Below are positions 13,300 to 31,555 of a stretch of DNA of 64,000 nt, one piece after another. Made by a program: the position numbers and the translations under genes. The stretch is taken from NCBI RefSeq assembly GCF_055900595.2, contig NZ_CM148325.1, one strand, 5' to 3'. Numbering within the stretch: position 1 is the stretch's first letter; the number at the start of each line of letters is the position of its first letter. Under the pieces are notes generated by a model. The model made no database searches and had not been told where the DNA came from. It worked only from the letters and a program-made list of their open reading frames with translations.

Positions 13300-13760
<461 letters not shown>

Positions 13761-25250: not shown

Positions 25251-25661
25251 ATGTTTTATCCCGCCTATATCCACAGTGATCCTGACGGCAGCGCCAGCGG
25301 TTTTTTCCCTGATGTTCCAGGCTGTTATTTTGCTGGTGATACGCTGGACAACGCTTTCCAGGATGCGCGAAGTGCACTGGTCGCGCACTTCGAAACCTTA
25401 TGCGAGATGAATGAAGAGTTGCCGCTTCCAGGCTCTGTGGAAACACATCTGGTCCAGCGTGCGCAGGACTTTATTGGCGGGCAATGGTTGCTGGTGGATA
25501 TCAATATGAATCAGTTCGAAGGTCGGGCTGAACGTATCAATATTACGATGCCGAAAAGATTACTGAACAAGATTGATACCTACGTGCGCAATAACCCAGA
25601 CTACGCCAACAGAAGTGCGTTTCTGGCGGAAGCTGCCCGGCGTGTATTGCCGGGCGTTTAA
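25251..25661 (+). CDS. hicB: HicB-family antitoxin with C-terminal ribbon-helix-helix DNA-binding domain (136 aa)
   Basis: Strong SD aggagg 7 nt upstream; C-terminal RHH-like segment NRSAFLAEAARRVL. Confidence 0.8.
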   Translation: MFYPAYIHSDPDGSASGFFPDVPGCYFAGDTLDNAFQDARSALVAHFETLCEMNEELPLPGSVETHLVQRAQDFIGGQWLLVDINMNQFEGRAERINITMPKRLLNKIDTYVRNNPDYANRSAFLAEAARRVLPGV

Positions 25662-26041
25662 TCTCGCGTTTCGATGGTGAGCGGGCGGACCAGGCTGTAC
25701 AGCCACAGACCAAAACAAGCGATGGTGCCAATCACCACGGTGAGGAACACACTGACTGACAGGCCTGCAAGCAATCCCGCAGGCAGGGCCAGCAGGCCGT
25801 GGATCACGGTGTCGTTCCATCTCACCTGATCGTAGCCAAACATGCCTAAAACGCCGCAAACCAGACCGTAAATCACCATTGGTGTTCCGAGGCCAATCAG
25901 CAATAAACGGTAGATAATTGAAGGTTTAATACGCTTTATCTGTACTGTGGATGTTTTACTGGGGTTATTCATTAGTTTGGTCAATAGTTCCATTATTTCA
26001 ATATGATAAACCTCGACCTGTTGAAAAGCCAGGTAGCACAC
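25658..26041 (-). CDS. Small hydrophobic membrane protein of unknown function (about 111-127 aa)
   Basis: ORF with two or three predicted TM helices; start uncertain (GTG at 26041 or ATG at 25993); 3' end overlaps the hicB stop by 4 bp. Confidence 0.45.
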   Translation of the reverse strand: MCYLAFQQVEVYHIEIMELLTKLMNNPSKTSTVQIKRIKPSIIYRLLLIGLGTPMVIYGLVCGVLGMFGYDQVRWNDTVIHGLLALPAGLLAGLSVSVFLTVVIGTIACFGLWLYSLVRPLTIETRD

Positions 26042-26154
26042 TTCAGAAAGTATATAAAAAACAATATGTCGTTATATAAATAAGGAAATTGCACTGCATC
26101 ATGGCATTTCATAATATGCGTTAATTGTTCTTTTTTATATTCTCTGAGGGAAAT

Positions 26155-26478
26155 ATGTTCCTGGACTATTTTGCACTGGGAGTGCTTATTTTTGTATTTC
26201 TGGTGATATTCTATGGGATTATTATTTTACATGATATTCCCTACCTGATTGCTAAAAAACGTAATCATCCTCATGCCGACGCCATTCATGTTGCTGGTTG
26301 GGTGAGTCTTTTTACGCTGCATGTTATCTGGCCATTTTTGTGGATTTGGGCCACGCTTTACCGCCCGGAGCGGGGATGGGGAATGCAAAACCATGACTCC
26401 TCCGTTGTGCAACTACAACAGCGTATTGCCGGGCTGGAGAAACAGCTCGCCGACATCAAATCCTCTTCTGCCGAGTAA
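26155..26478 (+). CDS. yiaW: DUF3302-family small inner-membrane protein
   Basis: ORF 26125..26478; start taken at MFLDYFALG with SD gaggg upstream (107 aa); paralog of yibI. Confidence 0.85.
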
Positions 26479-26483
26479 TACTT

Positions 26484-27620
26484 ATGGATTTACTGATTAT
26501 TTTGACCTATGTGGCTTTCGCATGGGCAATGTTTAAGATCTTCAAAATTCCTGTAAATAAATGGACCATTCCCACCGCGGCCCTGGGTGGCATATTTATT
26601 GTCAGCGGTCTAATTCTGTTAATGAACTATAACCATCCGTATACCTTTAAAGCGCAAAAAGCGGTTATTTCTATTCCTGTTGTCCCGCAGGTGACAGGCG
26701 TGGTGATCGAAGTGACGGACAAGAAAAATACGCTGATTAAAAAAGGTGAGGTGCTATTTCGACTGGACCCGACGCGTTATCAGGCGCGGGTGGATCGGCT
26801 GATGGCGGATATCGTTACCGCAGAACATAAACAGCGGGCGTTGGGCGCAGAGTTAGATGAGATGGCGGCGAATACTCAGCAGGCAAAGGCCACGCGGGAT
26901 AAATTCGCTAAAGAGTACCAGCGTTACGCACGCGGCAGCCAGGCGAAAGTAAACCCGTTTTCAGAACGCGATATTGATGTGGCGCGGCAAAATTATCTGG
27001 CGCAGGAAGCCTCCGTAAAGTCATCGGCGGCGGAACAAAAACAGATCCAGAGCCAGCTGGATAGCCTGGTGTTGGGTGAACATTCTCAAATCGCCAGCCT
27101 GAAAGCGCAGCTCGCGGAAGCAAAATATAACCTTGAGCAGACGATAGTGCGTGCGCCGAGCGATGGTTATGTGACCCAAGTGCTGATTCGTCCGGGTACC
27201 TATGCCGCATCGCTGCCGCTACGTCCTGTGATGGTGTTTATACCCGATCAGAAACGACAAATTGTGGCGCAGTTCCGTCAGAACTCCTTGCTGCGACTGG
27301 CTCCCGGCGATGATGCGGAAGTGGTGTTTAATGCTCTGCCAGGTAAGGTATTCAGCGGTAAGCTGGCAGCCATTAGCCCAGCTGTTCCCGGCGGAGCTTA
27401 TCAGTCGACCGGCACCTTACAGACGTTAAACACAGCACCGGGTTCAGATGGCGTTATCGCGACCATTGAACTGGATGAGCACACTGAGTTGAGCGCTTTA
27501 CCAGACGGTATTTACGCCCAGGTGGCGGTTTACTCTGATCATTTCAGCCATGTCTCGGTGATGCGCAAAGTGCTGTTACGCATGACCAGTTGGGTGCATT
27601 ACCTTTATCTCGATCATTAA
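26484..27620 (+). CDS. yiaV: HlyD-family membrane-fusion protein
   Basis: 378-aa ORF; paralog of yibH; starts 5 bp after yiaW. Confidence 0.85.
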
Positions 27621-28591
27621 TCTTCGCTTTCCGCCGCTTGTTCAGGCCGCAGTTGCTGCGACTGAGCAAGCTGGTGGCGAATTTCACGCAGCATTTCATC
27701 CAGCACATACTGGACCCGCCAGGGCTGGTATTCCCGTTTACGGAAGATAGCCACCAGATCCAGCCACCATTCATACGGTTGCTGAAAGCAGGGCACCAGC
27801 GTGCCGTCTTGCAGGTCGCTCTGCACACTTTTGTCTGGCGCAAACACAATCCCCAGGTGATTTCGTGCCAGCTCCAGCGCCGATTGCGTGTTGTCGCAAA
27901 CGTAATTTCCCTTCACGCGATAATCCCGCACCTCTTTACTCCCGGCGACGTTGAAGCGCCAGATATTCGCGTCGTCGATCATCATCGAGTCGATCAAAAT
28001 ACAGGAGTGATGTTCGAGTTCGTCAGGACGGCTAATGGGATGTTTCTCAAGATAGCGCTGACTGGCATAAGCGGTTACGGCATATTGCGTAATAAAACTG
28101 GCAACCAGCGATTCATCTTTTGGTGGAGCATAGCTGATTAAAACATCACAATCATCGGGAAATTCGACACCTTCATAAAAGGCATTACGCTCAAGATTGC
28201 AGGTTTTTAGCGATAAGGTGATATCACCGATATCTTTAATTTTATCGATAACATGTTTGGATAAATAGGTAATTATGCCGGTTGGGGCGTAGATGGTGAC
28301 CCGACCACGTTTCTCATGCTTATAATCTGCAATAAAATTATTAAGTTGCTCGTTTCTGTCCAGCATGTCGTTGATGTACGGTAACAGCGCGGTACCAAAA
28401 GGTGTGAGCATCAGCTGCCGGGTGGTTCGGTCAAAGACTTTTAAACCTACTTTTGATTCAAAATCAGCAAGATATTTGCTGACGTTGGCCTGTGCGAATC
28501 CAAGTACAGTCGCGGCATGGCTGATATTTTCACTGGCAGCGATTACCGAGATAATTTTTAACTCCCGGTACTTAAGTTGTAATTTTGTCAT
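27617..28591 (-). CDS. yiaU: LysR-family transcriptional regulator
   Basis: 324-aa ORF with N-terminal HTH; convergent with yiaV (4-bp overlap), divergent from yiaT. Confidence 0.85.
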
Positions 28592-28714
28592 CGCAACAGC
28601 CCAATTATATATAATTTTATATATTACTATATAAATATGAATCTTGCACCGGAGAAATTGTAAGCATTATTATGCCGACTCTTTTTTATCTTATTTTAAA
28701 ATGGAATACCGGAC

Positions 28715-29455
28715 ATGTTAATTAACCGCAATATTGTAGCGTTATTTACGTTGCCTTTTATGGCAAGCGCTACTGCTTCTGAATTATCCATTGGTGCTGG
28801 TGCAGCTTATAATGAATCGCCTTATCGTGGTTATAATGAAAATACAAAGGCAATTCCGCTGATTAGTTATGAAGGTGATTCTTTTTATGTTCGTCAGACC
28901 ACGTTAGGTTTTATTCTGTCGCAAAGTGAAAAAAATGAACTTAGCCTGACCGCATCCTGGATGCCGCTGGAATTTGACCCTGCAGATAATGACGATCATG
29001 CCATGCAACAGCTTGATAAGCGTGATAGTACGGCTATGGCGGGGGTTGCCTGGTATCACCACGAGCGTTGGGGAACCGTGAAAGCCTCTGCGGCTGCGGA
29101 CGTTCTGGATAACAGCAACGGCTGGGTGGGGGAGCTATCGGTATTTCACAAAATGCAGATAGGTCGCCTGTCGCTGACACCTGCACTGGGCGTTCTCTAT
29201 TATGACGAGAATTTCAGTGACTATTACTATGGCATTTCAGAGAGTGAGTCCCGTCGTAGCGGTCTGGCAAGTTATTCCGCGCAGGATGCTTGGGTGCCCT
29301 ATGTCAGCCTGACGGCAAAATACCCGATAGGAGAGCACATCGTATTGATGGCGAGTGCCGGATACAGCGAGCTGCCGGAAGAGATTACCGACAGCCCGAT
29401 GATTGATCGTAATGAGAGTTTTACCTTTGTCACCGGCGTGAGCTGGCGTTTTTAA
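28715..29455 (+). CDS. yiaT: MipA/OmpV-family outer-membrane protein
   Basis: 246-aa ORF with signal peptide and a terminal aromatic residue (…VSWRF). Confidence 0.8.
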   Translation: MLINRNIVALFTLPFMASATASELSIGAGAAYNESPYRGYNENTKAIPLISYEGDSFYVRQTTLGFILSQSEKNELSLTASWMPLEFDPADNDDHAMQQLDKRDSTAMAGVAWYHHERWGTVKASAAADVLDNSNGWVGELSVFHKMQIGRLSLTPALGVLYYDENFSDYYYGISESESRRSGLASYSAQDAWVPYVSLTAKYPIGEHIVLMASAGYSELPEEITDSPMIDRNESFTFVTGVSWRF

Positions 29456-29469
29456 TTTACCGGTGGATG

Positions 29470-29600
29470 TCGGTGCGGCTGGCCTACGCTCTCGCACTGA
29501 CCTTCAGGCTTGATAAGACGCGTTAAGCGTCGCATCAGGCAATGTGCACCCTACGTTGGATGCGGCGCGAGCGCCTTATCCAACCTACGGATGGCAATGC
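29470..29600. repeat. REP element pair between yiaT and the GH127 gene
   Basis: gcctacgctctcgcactgaccttcaggcttgataagacgcgttaagcgtcgcatcaggca ... ggatgcggcgcgagcgccttatccaacctacgg. Confidence 0.7.
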
Positions 29601-31555
29601 TTTTCCTCATTCACCCAGATCCGCATTTCGCCTTCACCCCGGTTAGCCCAGCTAAACCACGGGATAAATGTCAGAGTTTGCGGCTGGCGTTTGGCTGGCG
29701 CGCTGTCGTAATGCCACAGCGGTTGCTGCTCTGGATAGCTCTGTTCATACCGGTAACCCGGTGCCTGGATTAAGATCTTATGGCTGAACAATCCCTTACC
29801 TTCAAATGTCGTAAATGGCGCATCGGTGGGCAGCCACAGATTATGCAGTGACTCGCCGTTGTCGGCCTGTTCCAGGCAATACACCAGCGGGCCGCGCTGA
29901 ATCGCCACTTTTCCGGCGACGTGACGCACCAGCGGGTTACCGTAAACGCGACGTACCGGCATTGGCAACGTCAGATTCAGCGTGTCGCCCTCCTGCCATT
30001 CGCGGGTAATGTGCAAATACCCTTTACGAATATCCTGCTCGACCTCTTCCCCATTCAATGTAATCTGCGGCTGTGTGCACCAGTCCGGCAGACGTAAAGC
30101 CAGCGTATGACGCACCGGCTGGGGCGATTCAACCGCAATTGTCACCTGTTCCTGCCACGGATAGTTTCCGCTAACCCGCAGACGCAGCGTGCCATTTTCT
30201 ACCGGCACTTCCATGCTGTTTCCTGCGTAGATGTTGATATACAACGCATCTTCACGCGGCGTGTAGAGATAATGACCAATCGAGGTTAGCACGCGGGCGA
30301 TATTTGGCGGACAACAAGCGCAACCAAACCAACGCTGGCGGATCGGCTTAACGTGATCGTAGATATGGTTGAATTTCAGCGATTTTGGATGTACTTCCAG
30401 CGGATTCACATAGAAGAAATGTTTGCCATCCAGCGCCATGCCGCCGAGCACGGTGTTGTACAGTGCGCGCTCCATCACATCGGCATATTGACTGTCGCCT
30501 TCCATTTCCAGCATTCGCCGGGCGAACATCATCAGGCCGATGGAAGCACAGCTTTCGGCGTATACCGTGTCATTCGGCAGATCGTAATCGCTGCTGAACG
30601 CTTCGCCGCTGCTTTGTGAGCCAATGCCGCCGGTAATATATAACTGACGCTGGGCCATATTGTTCCACAGCCGCAGGCAGTCCTGACGCTTGCTTTCATC
30701 GTGACTTAAACGCGCGAGATGCGCGACGCCGGTCATCAGGTAGACAAAACGTACCGCGTGACCAATGGCGGTTTGCTGCTGTGCGATGGGCAAATGTGCC
30801 TGGCTGTAGGCTTTGTCTTTCACCATCCACGCCGGGCCGTAGGTGTGCCAGTGCGAGGTCTGCCCGCGCTTTTCATATTCCTGGTCGTAATAGTGCGGTT
30901 GCGCACCACGCTGTTCGACAAAATAGTTCGTCAGCGCCAGGTAGCGCGGCTCTTCGGTCACTTCATACAGGCGCATTAGTGCCAGTTCAATTTCCGGGTG
31001 ACCAGGATAACCGTGTAACTTACTTTCACCTGGACCAAATACGCTGTCGATATGATCGGCCAGACGGCAAACCACTTCCAGCAAGCGCCGCTTGCCCGTG
31101 GCCTGGAAGAAGGCGACTCCGGCTTCAATCAGATGACCGGCGCAGTAAAGTTCATGACACTCCGCCAGATTGCTCCAGCGTTCTTTGGGCGCTTTTACCG
31201 TAAAGTAAGTATTGAGATAGCCATCTTCGCACTGGGCGGAAGCGACCAGTTCGATTACCTCGTCAGCAGTTTTTTCCAGTTCGGCATCCGGCTTCTGGCA
31301 CAGCGACCAGGCTACCGCTTCCAGCCATTTGGCGACGTCGCTGTCCTGAAACACCATCCCGTAAAATTCACCGTCTTGCAGTCCTGCGGCAATGCGAAAG
31401 TTTTCAATCGCATGGCTGGGTTCCGCTTCTGGGATACGATCGTTCAAGGCATCCCACTGATAAGGAATCACCACGTCGCGGACCAGTTGTTGGTACTGAC
31501 CGAGGAACGGATCGCTGACCGTCAGTTTATGCAGATCGACTTCCGAAATGTTCAT
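29585..31555 (-). CDS. Glycoside hydrolase family 127-like (DUF1680) protein, candidate beta-L-arabinofuranosidase (about 656 aa)
   Basis: ORF 29585..31603; start taken at MNISEVDL with SD aaggag 8 nt upstream; large soluble protein with Cys-rich C-terminal part (FGCACCPPN); family assignment from recalled family features. Confidence 0.7.
   Translation of the reverse strand: MNISEVDLHKLTVSDPFLGQYQQLVRDVVIPYQWDALNDRIPEAEPSHAIENFRIAAGLQDGEFYGMVFQDSDVAKWLEAVAWSLCQKPDAELEKTADEVIELVASAQCEDGYLNTYFTVKAPKERWSNLAECHELYCAGHLIEAGVAFFQATGKRRLLEVVCRLADHIDSVFGPGESKLHGYPGHPEIELALMRLYEVTEEPRYLALTNYFVEQRGAQPHYYDQEYEKRGQTSHWHTYGPAWMVKDKAYSQAHLPIAQQQTAIGHAVRFVYLMTGVAHLARLSHDESKRQDCLRLWNNMAQRQLYITGGIGSQSSGEAFSSDYDLPNDTVYAESCASIGLMMFARRMLEMEGDSQYADVMERALYNTVLGGMALDGKHFFYVNPLEVHPKSLKFNHIYDHVKPIRQRWFGCACCPPNIARVLTSIGHYLYTPREDALYINIYAGNSMEVPVENGTLRLRVSGNYPWQEQVTIAVESPQPVRHTLALRLPDWCTQPQITLNGEEVEQDIRKGYLHITREWQEGDTLNLTLPMPVRRVYGNPLVRHVAGKVAIQRGPLVYCLEQADNGESLHNLWLPTDAPFTTFEGKGLFSHKILIQAPGYRYEQSYPEQQPLWHYDSAPAKRQPQTLTFIPWFSWANRGEGEMRIWVNEEKHCHP

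What the first reader, a model, noticed from the sequence alone, without database searches (positions are those of the whole stretch)
29585..29600. The GH127-like gene ends inside a REP element
The last four codons and the stop of the hydrolase gene (…HCHP-stop) are encoded by REP sequence (ccatccgtaggttggataaggcg on the plus strand). Either the REP inserted into the original 3' end, or the island junction fused the gene to a pre-existing REP. The true ancestral C-terminus may differ.
Basis: seen in the sequence. Interest (0 to 1): 0.3.

Follow-up and report, generated by a model that had tools for sequence, protein, structure and literature searches.

The report
Hydrolase gene ends inside a REP
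In Escherichia, a sugar-cleaving enzyme gene lost its own stop codon and now reads a few extra codons into a common repeated palindrome (REP) that supplies the stop; this is a real but ordinary kind of repeat-gene fusion that gives the protein a variable, probably useless tail and misleads automatic annotation.

Summary
The GH127 gene (window 29585-31555, minus strand) ends ...WVNEEKHCHP-TAG. The TAG (29585-29587) lies in the conserved GTAGG foot of a Y-type REP (29549-29590). That REP is half of a two-REP unit (BIME) that matches Rfam naRNA4.

The ancestral C-terminus does differ. In 73 of 77 orthologues from other genera the protein stops 1-3 residues after WVNE at its own TAA or TGA. A crystallised homologue (4QJY) and the Pfam domain also end there. 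None ends in HCHP. Only Escherichia reads on.

Across 5,426 complete E. coli genomes there are at least five tails: EEKHCHP, EEKHCHPEVG, EEKHRHPEVG, EETSAIRR and EETSA. Every one of them ends at a stop codon carried by a REP.

The "island junction" idea is wrong. The arrangement MFS-GH127 converging on yiaT-yiaU is conserved in about 25 loci from seven other genera, and K-12 keeps deletion remnants of the locus.

The most likely history is a small rearrangement in the Escherichia stem lineage that removed the native stop and fused the reading frame to REP-derived sequence. Later remodelling of the REPs then shuffled the tail.

The expected consequence is weaker translation, because a hairpin starts at the last codon and the protein ends in Pro-UAG. 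This is inferred, not tested.

Interest is low to moderate. This is a new example of a known phenomenon.

The parts
29585..31555 (-). GH127 (beta-L-arabinofuranosidase family) gene, 656 aa
   Evidence: ORF. Pfam PF07944, PF20736 and PF20737 all match. PDB 4QJY matches at E=9.6e-237. RefSeq CDS WP_001026869.
29606..29617 (-). Codons W647-V648-N649-E650, the last residues conserved across genera and the end of the structured domain
   Evidence: The Pfam C-terminal domain ends at residue 649. The 4QJY alignment ends at query residue 650, which is chain residue 647 of 648.
29588..29602 (-). Escherichia-specific extension K-H-C-H-P. It has no homologue in orthologues from other genera and resembles one arm of a truncated REP-like hairpin.
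   Evidence: Homology among E. coli alleles and with other genera breaks after GAGGAAA. Similarity to the Citrobacter REP head arm CCGGATGGCGACGCTT is 13/15, and 15/16 in the B-type allele.
29585..29587 (-). Stop codon TAG, lying inside the conserved GTAGG foot of the REP
29549..29590 (.). Y-type REP, a variant in which CCGG...CCGG is changed to TTGG...CCAA so the stem is kept. On the mRNA strand it forms a hairpin that starts at the Pro codon.
   Evidence: Inverted-repeat arms. Consensus match with 0 mismatches, 6 hits against 0 expected. Local fold -23.7 kcal/mol, z=-3.5.
29542..29548 (.). Head-to-head linker between the two REPs
   Evidence: Rfam naRNA4 alignment.
29507..29541 (.). Z2-type REP, the second half of the BIME. 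It supplies the TGA stop in the E. coli allele that lacks the Y REP.
   Evidence: The ETEC4068 allele is shown.
29507..29585 (-). Full-length match to Rfam RF02564 (naRNA4, a Y-linker-Z2 REP pair) on the GH127 mRNA strand
   Evidence: 67.8 bits against a gathering score of 59.5, E=3.5e-12, model positions 1-77 of 77.
28715..29455 (+). yiaT (MipA/OmpV family), the convergent neighbour. The BIME lies between the two stop codons.

Best explanation
The GH127 enzyme originally ended ...RIWVNE-x-stop. Many enteric relatives have a REP-type palindrome a few bases after that stop.

In the stem lineage of Escherichia a small rearrangement removed the native stop. The most likely event is a micro-deletion that took out the stop, the spacer and the near half of the adjacent palindrome. 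Translation now runs 4-9 extra codons (relative to WVNE-x) through REP-derived sequence and ends at whichever stop codon the REP offers in frame:
- TAG in GTAGG
- TAA in GGATAAGG
- TGA in CTGATGCG

Later point mutations, a 1-nt indel and gain or loss of a whole REP unit produced at least five different tails within E. coli. The tail is a neutral by-product, not a functional domain.

What is shown: the anatomy, the comparison with orthologues, the allele series and the conserved gene order.

What is inferred:
- The type of rearrangement.
- The consequence for expression. The REP hairpin begins at the last sense codon and the protein ends in Pro-UAG. Ribosomes should therefore pause just before or at termination, lowering enzyme yield through mRNA cleavage and tmRNA rescue, as reported for REPs 15 nt or less from a stop.
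- A second role for the REP pair as a two-way 3'-end protector or terminator for the convergent GH127 and yiaT transcripts.
For: **Anatomy**
- Stop codon inside the REP.
- Rfam naRNA4 match above the gathering score.

**Ancestral end**
- Of 77 non-Escherichia orthologues, 54 have 1 residue after WVNE, 11 have 2 and 8 have 3. All use their own TAA, TGA or TAG.
- 120 database homologues show the same pattern.
- 4QJY and the Pfam domain end at WVNE.

**Escherichia only**
- Escherichia sp. E1V33 ends EENRRHP-TAG, with the same CATCCGTAGG.
- E. whittamii has lost that TAG and stops at the TAA of the decayed REP.

**Allele series in 5,426 complete E. coli genomes**
- EEKHCHP*: about 848 genomes (147 + 701).
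- EEKHCHPEVG*: 131 genomes.
- EEKHRHPEVG*: about 404 genomes.
- EETSAIRR*: 568 genomes.
- EETSA*: about 354 genomes.
- The rest of the protein is about 98% identical between alleles, while the tail differs completely.

**REPs next to the stop elsewhere**
- A REP-type motif starts 15 nt or less after the native stop in 21 of 78 orthologous loci.
- The tail matches the Citrobacter hairpin arm.

**Expression inference**
- The hairpin folds at -23.7 kcal/mol and starts at the CCG (Pro) codon.
- REPs fewer than 16 nt from a stop reduce translation by stalling ribosomes (Liang et al. 2015, as summarised in PMC12306157).
- A C-terminal proline can stall termination (Hayes et al. 2002, via PMC7246954).
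- REPs act as terminators and stabilisers, and are linked to higher expression of convergent gene pairs (bioRxiv 10.64898/2026.03.23.713779).
Against: - No expression, ribosome-profiling or tmRNA-tagging data were available, so the regulatory consequence is untested.
- The 161-nt minimum-energy fold does not contain the canonical REP hairpin. Only local folds do.
- The PMC7246954 experiments saw no expression change with a C-terminal proline, though they were done in a different species.
- The direction of events is unresolved. The allele without the Y REP (EETSA*) could be an empty site that predates the insertion rather than a secondary loss. Its junction cannot be derived from the other alleles by one clean deletion.
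- The 'half REP' reading of the tail rests on a 13-16 nt similarity that I noticed after the fact.
Confidence: 0.75

Rival explanations
1. Island junction. A horizontally acquired GH127-transporter island was inserted next to yiaT, and the junction fused the gene to a REP that was already there.
For: K-12 and most E. coli genomes lack the intact gene. Only 1,253 of 5,426 hold the contiguous yiaT-BIME-GH127 configuration. At first sight this looks like presence/absence of an island.
Against: K-12 keeps internal remnants of the locus (ysaD, ysaC), so it lost the locus by deletion. The same convergent order GH127/yiaT-yiaU is found in seven other genera. The same CATCCGTAGG gene end occurs in another Escherichia species (Escherichia sp. 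E1V33), and E. whittamii carries a mutated form of it, both in different downstream contexts.
Confidence: 0.03
2. Clean REP insertion. A complete Y-REP unit of about 55 nt was inserted between the gene and an older Z2 REP, carrying in the TAG. The EETSA* allele, which has only the Z2 REP, is the surviving empty site.
For: The alleles differ by presence or absence of exactly one REP plus linker. A TGCC / CATTGCC motif flanks both sides of that unit. REPs and REP doublets are thought to be moved by RAYT transposases (Delihas 2011, PMC3184786; and my own knowledge of the RAYT literature).
Against: Even the 'empty' allele has already lost the native stop. It reads through the former spacer and ends at the TGA in the head of the Z2 REP, so this insertion cannot be the primary event. 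The Y REP, in decayed form, is present in E. whittamii and Escherichia sp. E1V33, and in the E. coli allele that shares the left-flank haplotype (ACCAGYGC). Loss in the EETSA* lineage is therefore more parsimonious.
Confidence: 0.15
3. Functional tail. The His/Cys-rich extension (HCHP, HRHPEVG) is an adaptive addition, for example a metal-binding tail for an enzyme that uses a zinc-cysteine active site.
For: The tail is rich in His and Cys. The H-P ending is shared by E. coli and Escherichia sp. E1V33. That GH127 enzymes use a Zn-Cys site is from my own knowledge of HypBA1. The CACCPPN motif is conserved here.
Against: At least five unrelated tails coexist in E. coli, including frame-shifted ones with no His or Cys (EETSA, EETSAIRR). 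The tail is absent from all other genera. It lies beyond the end of the crystallised fold. Its sequence follows from the REP nucleotide consensus.
Confidence: 0.05

Closest known systems
REP / BIME elements of E. coli (Y and Z2 palindromic units; Rfam RF02564 naRNA4, modelled on REP325)
   Same: Consensus sequence, imperfect palindrome, GTAGG foot, multiple copies and a Y-linker-Z2 pair lying between convergent genes. The covariance-model score is above the gathering threshold.
   Different: REPs are described as extragenic, and the 2026 preprint states that all E. coli REPs are extragenic. Here the foot of the REP holds the stop codon and the last codon, and REP-derived sequence is translated. 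This copy also carries a compensated CCGG-to-TTGG / CCGG-to-CCAA stem variant.
REPs within 15 nt of a stop codon that reduce translation (Liang, Rudd and Deutscher 2015, as summarised in PMC12306157)
   Same: A stable REP hairpin lies immediately 3' of the coding region. The distance criterion of 15 nt or less is met (the distance is 0 or negative).
   Different: In the described cases the REP lies downstream of the stop. Here the stop is inside the stem. Stalling, mRNA cleavage and tmRNA tagging have not been shown for this gene.
Small repeats fused in frame to gene 3' ends (enterobacterial RU/ERIC-type elements, RUP/BOX, BRE, Rickettsia RPE; Delihas 2007 PMC2759123 and 2011 PMC3184786)
   Same: A repeat element extends the 3' end of a protein-coding gene and provides a new C-terminus and stop.
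   Different: Those are mostly MITE-like elements of 100-170 bp that add longer peptides. Here a 35-40 nt REP adds only 4-9 residues.
GH127 beta-L-arabinofuranosidases (HypBA1, PDB 3WKW; Geobacillus enzyme, PDB 4QJY)
   Same: All three Pfam domains are present, the whole length aligns to 4QJY, and the CACCPPN motif is conserved.
   Different: It has 6 extra C-terminal residues beyond the end of the crystallised fold. Its substrate is unknown.

Membership tests
REP (Y-type palindromic unit) | Match to the REP consensus, with an imperfect palindrome of about 35-40 nt | tested here: met
   0 mismatches to GGATGCGGCGNNNNCGCCTTATCCNNCCTAC at 29558-29588. Two 20-nt arms are 80% complementary. The consensus is quoted in PMC12306157.
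REP (Y-type palindromic unit) | Many copies per genome, more than chance would give | tested here: met
   6 copies in the 64-kb window against 0 expected in 100 shuffles. Further copies occur in related loci.
REP (Y-type palindromic unit) | Extragenic location | tested here: not met
   The REP foot overlaps the stop codon and the Pro codon of the GH127 CDS. The overlap with the canonical unit is 5-6 nt.
REP (Y-type palindromic unit) | Recognised or cleaved by the RAYT transposase (TnpA-REP) | not testable with these tools
   This needs biochemistry.
BIME-2 / naRNA4 (Rfam RF02564) | Covariance-model score at or above the Rfam gathering threshold over the full model | tested here: met
   67.8 bits against 59.5, model positions 1-77 of 77, at 29507-29585 on the minus strand.
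BIME-2 / naRNA4 (Rfam RF02564) | Transcribed and processed into a discrete RNA that binds HU | not testable with these tools
   No expression data were available. The chromosome-compaction role is itself disputed.
REPs that reduce translation (15 nt or less from a stop) | REP hairpin starts within 15 nt of the stop codon of the upstream gene | tested here: met
   The hairpin (-23.7 kcal/mol) starts at the last sense codon, and the stop lies in the stem.
REPs that reduce translation (15 nt or less from a stop) | Ribosome stalling, mRNA cleavage and tmRNA tagging, with lower protein yield | not testable with these tools
   This needs reporter assays, ribosome profiling or ssrA-tag capture.
Glycoside hydrolase family 127 | The catalytic, middle and C-terminal GH127 domains | tested here: met
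   PF07944 at 5.5e-112, PF20736 at 2.4e-24 and PF20737 at 1.8e-25.
Glycoside hydrolase family 127 | Close sequence relation to solved GH127 enzymes, with the Cys-Cys-Pro-Pro-Asn active-site motif conserved | tested here: met
   4QJY at E=9.6e-237, aligned over query residues 11-650. The motif 'caccppn' is identical in both. That this motif is catalytic is from my own knowledge of HypBA1.
Glycoside hydrolase family 127 | beta-L-arabinofuranosidase activity | not testable with these tools
   This needs an enzyme assay.

The most novel reading that the evidence does not exclude
The REP is a built-in, evolvable brake on translation rather than a passive neighbour. Placing the stop codon at different depths in a REP hairpin (at the foot, four codons into the stem, or in the head of the second REP), together with a Pro-UAG ending, would give the E. 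coli tail alleles different levels of ribosome stalling and tmRNA-mediated loss of the enzyme. REP turnover would then tune the enzyme dose between lineages while also altering the protein's C-terminus.
Probability: 0.2. Interest if true: 0.45.

Novelty: new member of a known kind. Interest (0 to 1): 0.25.

Why it matters
**Annotation.** The 568 genomes with the EETSAIRR allele carry a 1-nt indel in the REP-derived tail. In both records I examined, PGAP labels the gene 'frameshifted' and so calls it a pseudogene. The 657-codon reading frame is intact and 98% identical in the record I translated. Pan-genome and metabolic inferences would wrongly score the enzyme as lost in those strains.

**Biology.** This is a clean natural series. 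It shows REPs donating stop codons, producing C-terminal polymorphism, and acting as breakpoints for deletions at one locus. It is also a counter-example to the statement that E. coli REPs never touch coding sequence. It offers a convenient native test case for the idea that REPs close to a stop throttle translation. None of this changes a major concept.

Tried and rejected
- **K-12 as a REP-free comparator.** Rejected. K-12 has a 212-nt deletion that removes the BIME and the last ~37 codons, so ysaD says nothing about the C-terminus.
- **Reading Liang et al. 2015 directly, by DOI and by a guessed PMC id.** The paper is not held. I relied on the summary in PMC12306157.
- **Census of K-12 genes whose stop lies in a REP.** The K-12 record in this collection lists no REP features, so I could not do it.
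- **Global 161-nt RNA fold.** The minimum-energy structure pairs across elements and does not show the REP hairpins. Local folds do.
- **Is 'CCATCC' upstream of GTAGG part of the repeated unit?** It is not. The flanks of about 40 other REP copies all differ, and the junction 58-mer occurs once per genome.
- **Target-site-duplication model (CATTGCC on both sides of the Y REP) and single-deletion derivations of the EETSA* allele.** Neither fits exactly, so I left the question unresolved.
- **Other REPs in the window overlapping annotated genes.** The apparent overlaps were a coordinate offset between the window and the reference genome. They are ordinary intergenic REPs, for example the mtlA-mtlD BIME.

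Full report
**1. What is at the coordinates**

The window is E. coli chromosome. A 1,001-nt piece around the finding is 99.9% identical to strain 2013C-4282. Two genes converge here:
- yiaT (MipA family), 28715-29455, plus strand.
- A 656-aa glycoside hydrolase, 29585-31555, minus strand. An MFS sugar transporter and an AraC-type regulator lie upstream of it.

The hydrolase is a true GH127 enzyme. All three Pfam GH127 domains match. It aligns end to end with the crystallised Geobacillus beta-L-arabinofuranosidase 4QJY at E=9.6e-237.

The gene ends GAG GAA AAG CAT TGC CAT CCG TAG, which reads ...E-E-K-H-C-H-P-stop. The TAG is at 29585-29587.

**2. The REP is real**

The 129-nt gap between the two stop codons holds two inverted palindromic units:
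- A Z2-type REP at about 29507-29541.
- A Y-type REP at 29549-29590.

The evidence:
- The Y unit matches GGATGCGGCGNNNNCGCCTTATCCNNCCTAC with no mismatch. It is one of six hits in the window, where shuffles give none.
- The pair gives a full-length hit above threshold to Rfam RF02564, naRNA4 (67.8 bits against 59.5). This family is modelled on the Y-linker-Z2 units of REP325.
- On the mRNA strand the Y unit folds into a hairpin of -23.7 kcal/mol (z=-3.5). Its stem starts at the CCG proline codon and includes the UAG.

One refinement is needed. In other REP copies the sequence just upstream of GTAGG is different every time. The 58-nt junction also occurs only once per genome. The canonical REP therefore accounts for the stop and the last 2-3 bases of the Pro codon, not for all four codons.

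The remaining codons do still look REP-derived:
- The window reads CGGATGGCAATGCTT on the plus strand.
- The common B-strain allele reads CCGGATGGCGATGCTT.
- The head arm of the REP just after the Citrobacter youngae orthologue reads CCGGATGGCGACGCTT. This is 13/15 and 15/16 identity.
- Escherichia sp. E1V33 shares CGCCATCCGT with the far arm of the C. gillenii hairpin.

I treat this similarity as suggestive only, because I noticed it after the fact.

**3. The ancestral C-terminus**

A scan of one genome per species returned 80 orthologous loci. I read each gene end with a script.
- Outside Escherichia, 54 of 77 proteins stop one residue after W-V-N-E, 11 after two and 8 after three.
- They use their own TAA (52), TGA (23) or TAG (3).
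- None ends in HCHP or HP.
- 120 database homologues show the same pattern.
- The Pfam C-terminal domain ends at residue 649. The 4QJY chain ends one residue after WVNE.

The ancestral end is WVNE-x. The six residues after WVNE in E. coli lie beyond the folded domain. The first of them corresponds to the usual last residue, so five (K-H-C-H-P) are extra.

**4. Only Escherichia reads on, and the tail is unstable**

- Escherichia sp. E1V33 ends EENRRHP-TAG, with the same CATCCGTAGG. Its Y REP is half deleted.
- E. whittamii has lost that TAG and stops at the TAA of the decayed GGATAAGG.

The fusion therefore predates E. coli.

Allele-specific 57- and 58-mer searches of 5,426 complete E. coli genomes gave the following:

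| Tail | Genomes | Stop used |
|---|---|---|
| EEKHCHP* | 147 + 701 | TAG in GTAGG |
| EEKHCHPEVG* | 131 | TAG changed to GAG; TAA deeper in the REP stem |
| EEKHRHPEVG* | about 404 (includes B-strain derivatives) | TAA deeper in the REP stem |
| EETSAIRR* | 568 | 1-nt deletion; TAG in a variant GTAGGTAGG |
| EETSA* | about 354 | Y REP absent; TGA in the Z2 REP head |

Every allele ends on a stop codon carried by a REP. The rest of the protein is about 98% identical between alleles, yet the tail differs completely. That is the signature of an unconstrained by-product.

**5. Not an island junction**

The order MFS, GH127, then convergent yiaT and yiaU recurs in Citrobacter, Leclercia, Enterobacter, Lelliottia, Silvania, Huaxiibacter and Pseudocitrobacter.

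K-12 has two pseudogene remnants where the locus should be, ysaD and ysaC. A 212-nt deletion between GGCTGG direct repeats removed the BIME and the gene's last ~37 codons. The locus is therefore ancestral and has been lost repeatedly.

**6. How the fusion arose (inferred)**

REP-type palindromes begin 15 nt or less after the native stop in 21 of the 78 non-Escherichia loci. The Escherichia ancestor probably already had one there. The tail looks like only the far arm of such a hairpin.

I therefore favour a micro-deletion that removed the stop, the spacer and the near arm. The alternative is insertion of a complete REP.

A rival view is that a whole Y unit was inserted next to an older Z2 REP, and that EETSA* is the empty site. 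It has some support: the presence/absence boundary is clean and TGCC motifs flank the unit. But that allele has itself already lost the native stop. The Y unit is also present in the outgroup Escherichia species. I could not derive EETSA* from the other alleles by one clean deletion, so the direction of change stays open.

**7. What it probably does (inferred, not tested)**

- REPs fewer than 16 nt from a stop stall ribosomes and lower translation. This is the finding of Liang et al. 2015, as summarised in PMC12306157. Here the distance is zero and the stop sits in the stem.
- A C-terminal proline can also stall termination in E. coli (Hayes et al. 2002, via PMC7246954). That paper's own assays, in another species, saw no effect.
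- REPs between convergent genes behave as two-way terminators and stabilisers (bioRxiv 10.64898/2026.03.23.713779). The simple scan found no intrinsic terminator on the GH127 strand in the intergenic region.

The expected net effect is a protected mRNA 3' end and reduced enzyme yield.

**8. Comparison with what is known**

Repeats that extend gene 3' ends are well documented (Delihas 2007 and 2011). REPs next to stop codons are common. This is a new example of a known kind.

It is mildly atypical in one way. E. coli REPs are usually described as strictly extragenic, and this one contains a stop codon.

**9. Practical consequence**

In both records I examined, PGAP marks the EETSAIRR allele as 'frameshifted'. 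The frame is intact over 657 codons in the one I translated. Up to 568 genomes may therefore wrongly list this enzyme as a pseudogene.

**Verdict**

- Observation: confirmed.
- Interpretation: partly supported. The ancestral C-terminus does differ, and the island idea is refuted.
- Novelty: low. Interest: 0.25.

Noticed in passing
window 29478-29695 versus L001 (K-12) 2856-2900: K-12 lacks the BIME and the last ~37 codons of the GH127 gene, through a 212-nt deletion between two GGCTGG direct repeats. The pseudogenes ysaD and ysaC are what is left of the GH127 gene and the regulator gene.
   Followed up: partly
L088 2500-2760 (strain SK1144), L005; corresponds to window ~25400-29545: In 568 E. 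coli genomes the REP linker on the GH127 side is joined to a REP next to aldB, through an 11-nt overlap in the REP heads. About 4 kb is deleted (yiaW, yiaV, yiaU, yiaT). This looks like REP-REP recombination.
   Followed up: partly
L088 569-2538 and L005 1571-3540: PGAP annotates the GH127 gene as a 'frameshifted' pseudogene in these genomes. In L088, the one I translated, the reading frame is intact (657 aa, 13 substitutions outside the tail). The flag comes from a 1-nt indel in the REP-derived tail.
   Followed up: yes
L003 800-1420, L004 840-1460: Some E. coli carry a hicAB toxin-antitoxin pair directly downstream of the GH127 BIME in place of yiaT. In the yiaT-type genome L002, a stretch at 5479-5587 that overlaps an annotated 'hypothetical protein' matches the sequence flanking hicB.
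   Followed up: partly
window 13340-13720: There are three tandem BIME units with a 135-nt period in the mtlD-mtlA intergenic region. Spurious ORFs of 112-134 aa run through them.
   Followed up: no
L076-L080, L082 (Bradyrhizobium spp.): Six Bradyrhizobium genomes encode a GH127 protein 72% identical to the E. coli enzyme, ending WINER*, with no MFS transporter next to it. This is unexpectedly close for an alphaproteobacterium and may reflect horizontal transfer.
   Followed up: no
L029 (record titled Chryseobacterium sp. 18061): The contig carries an 85%-identical GH127 gene with the enterobacterial MFS neighbour. The record looks mislabelled or contaminated.
   Followed up: no
L066 ~4933 (Enterobacter asburiae AEB30): A TGG-to-TAG nonsense change truncates the protein five codons before its normal end (...GEMRI*). 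This is a natural C-terminal truncation variant.
   Followed up: no
window 29556-29585: This REP copy carries a compensated double change in its stem (CCGGAT...ATCCGG to TTGGAT...ATCCAA), so pairing is kept. The commonest E. coli allele (701 genomes, including O157:H7 EDL933) has an additional G-to-A change in the inner stem.
   Followed up: partly
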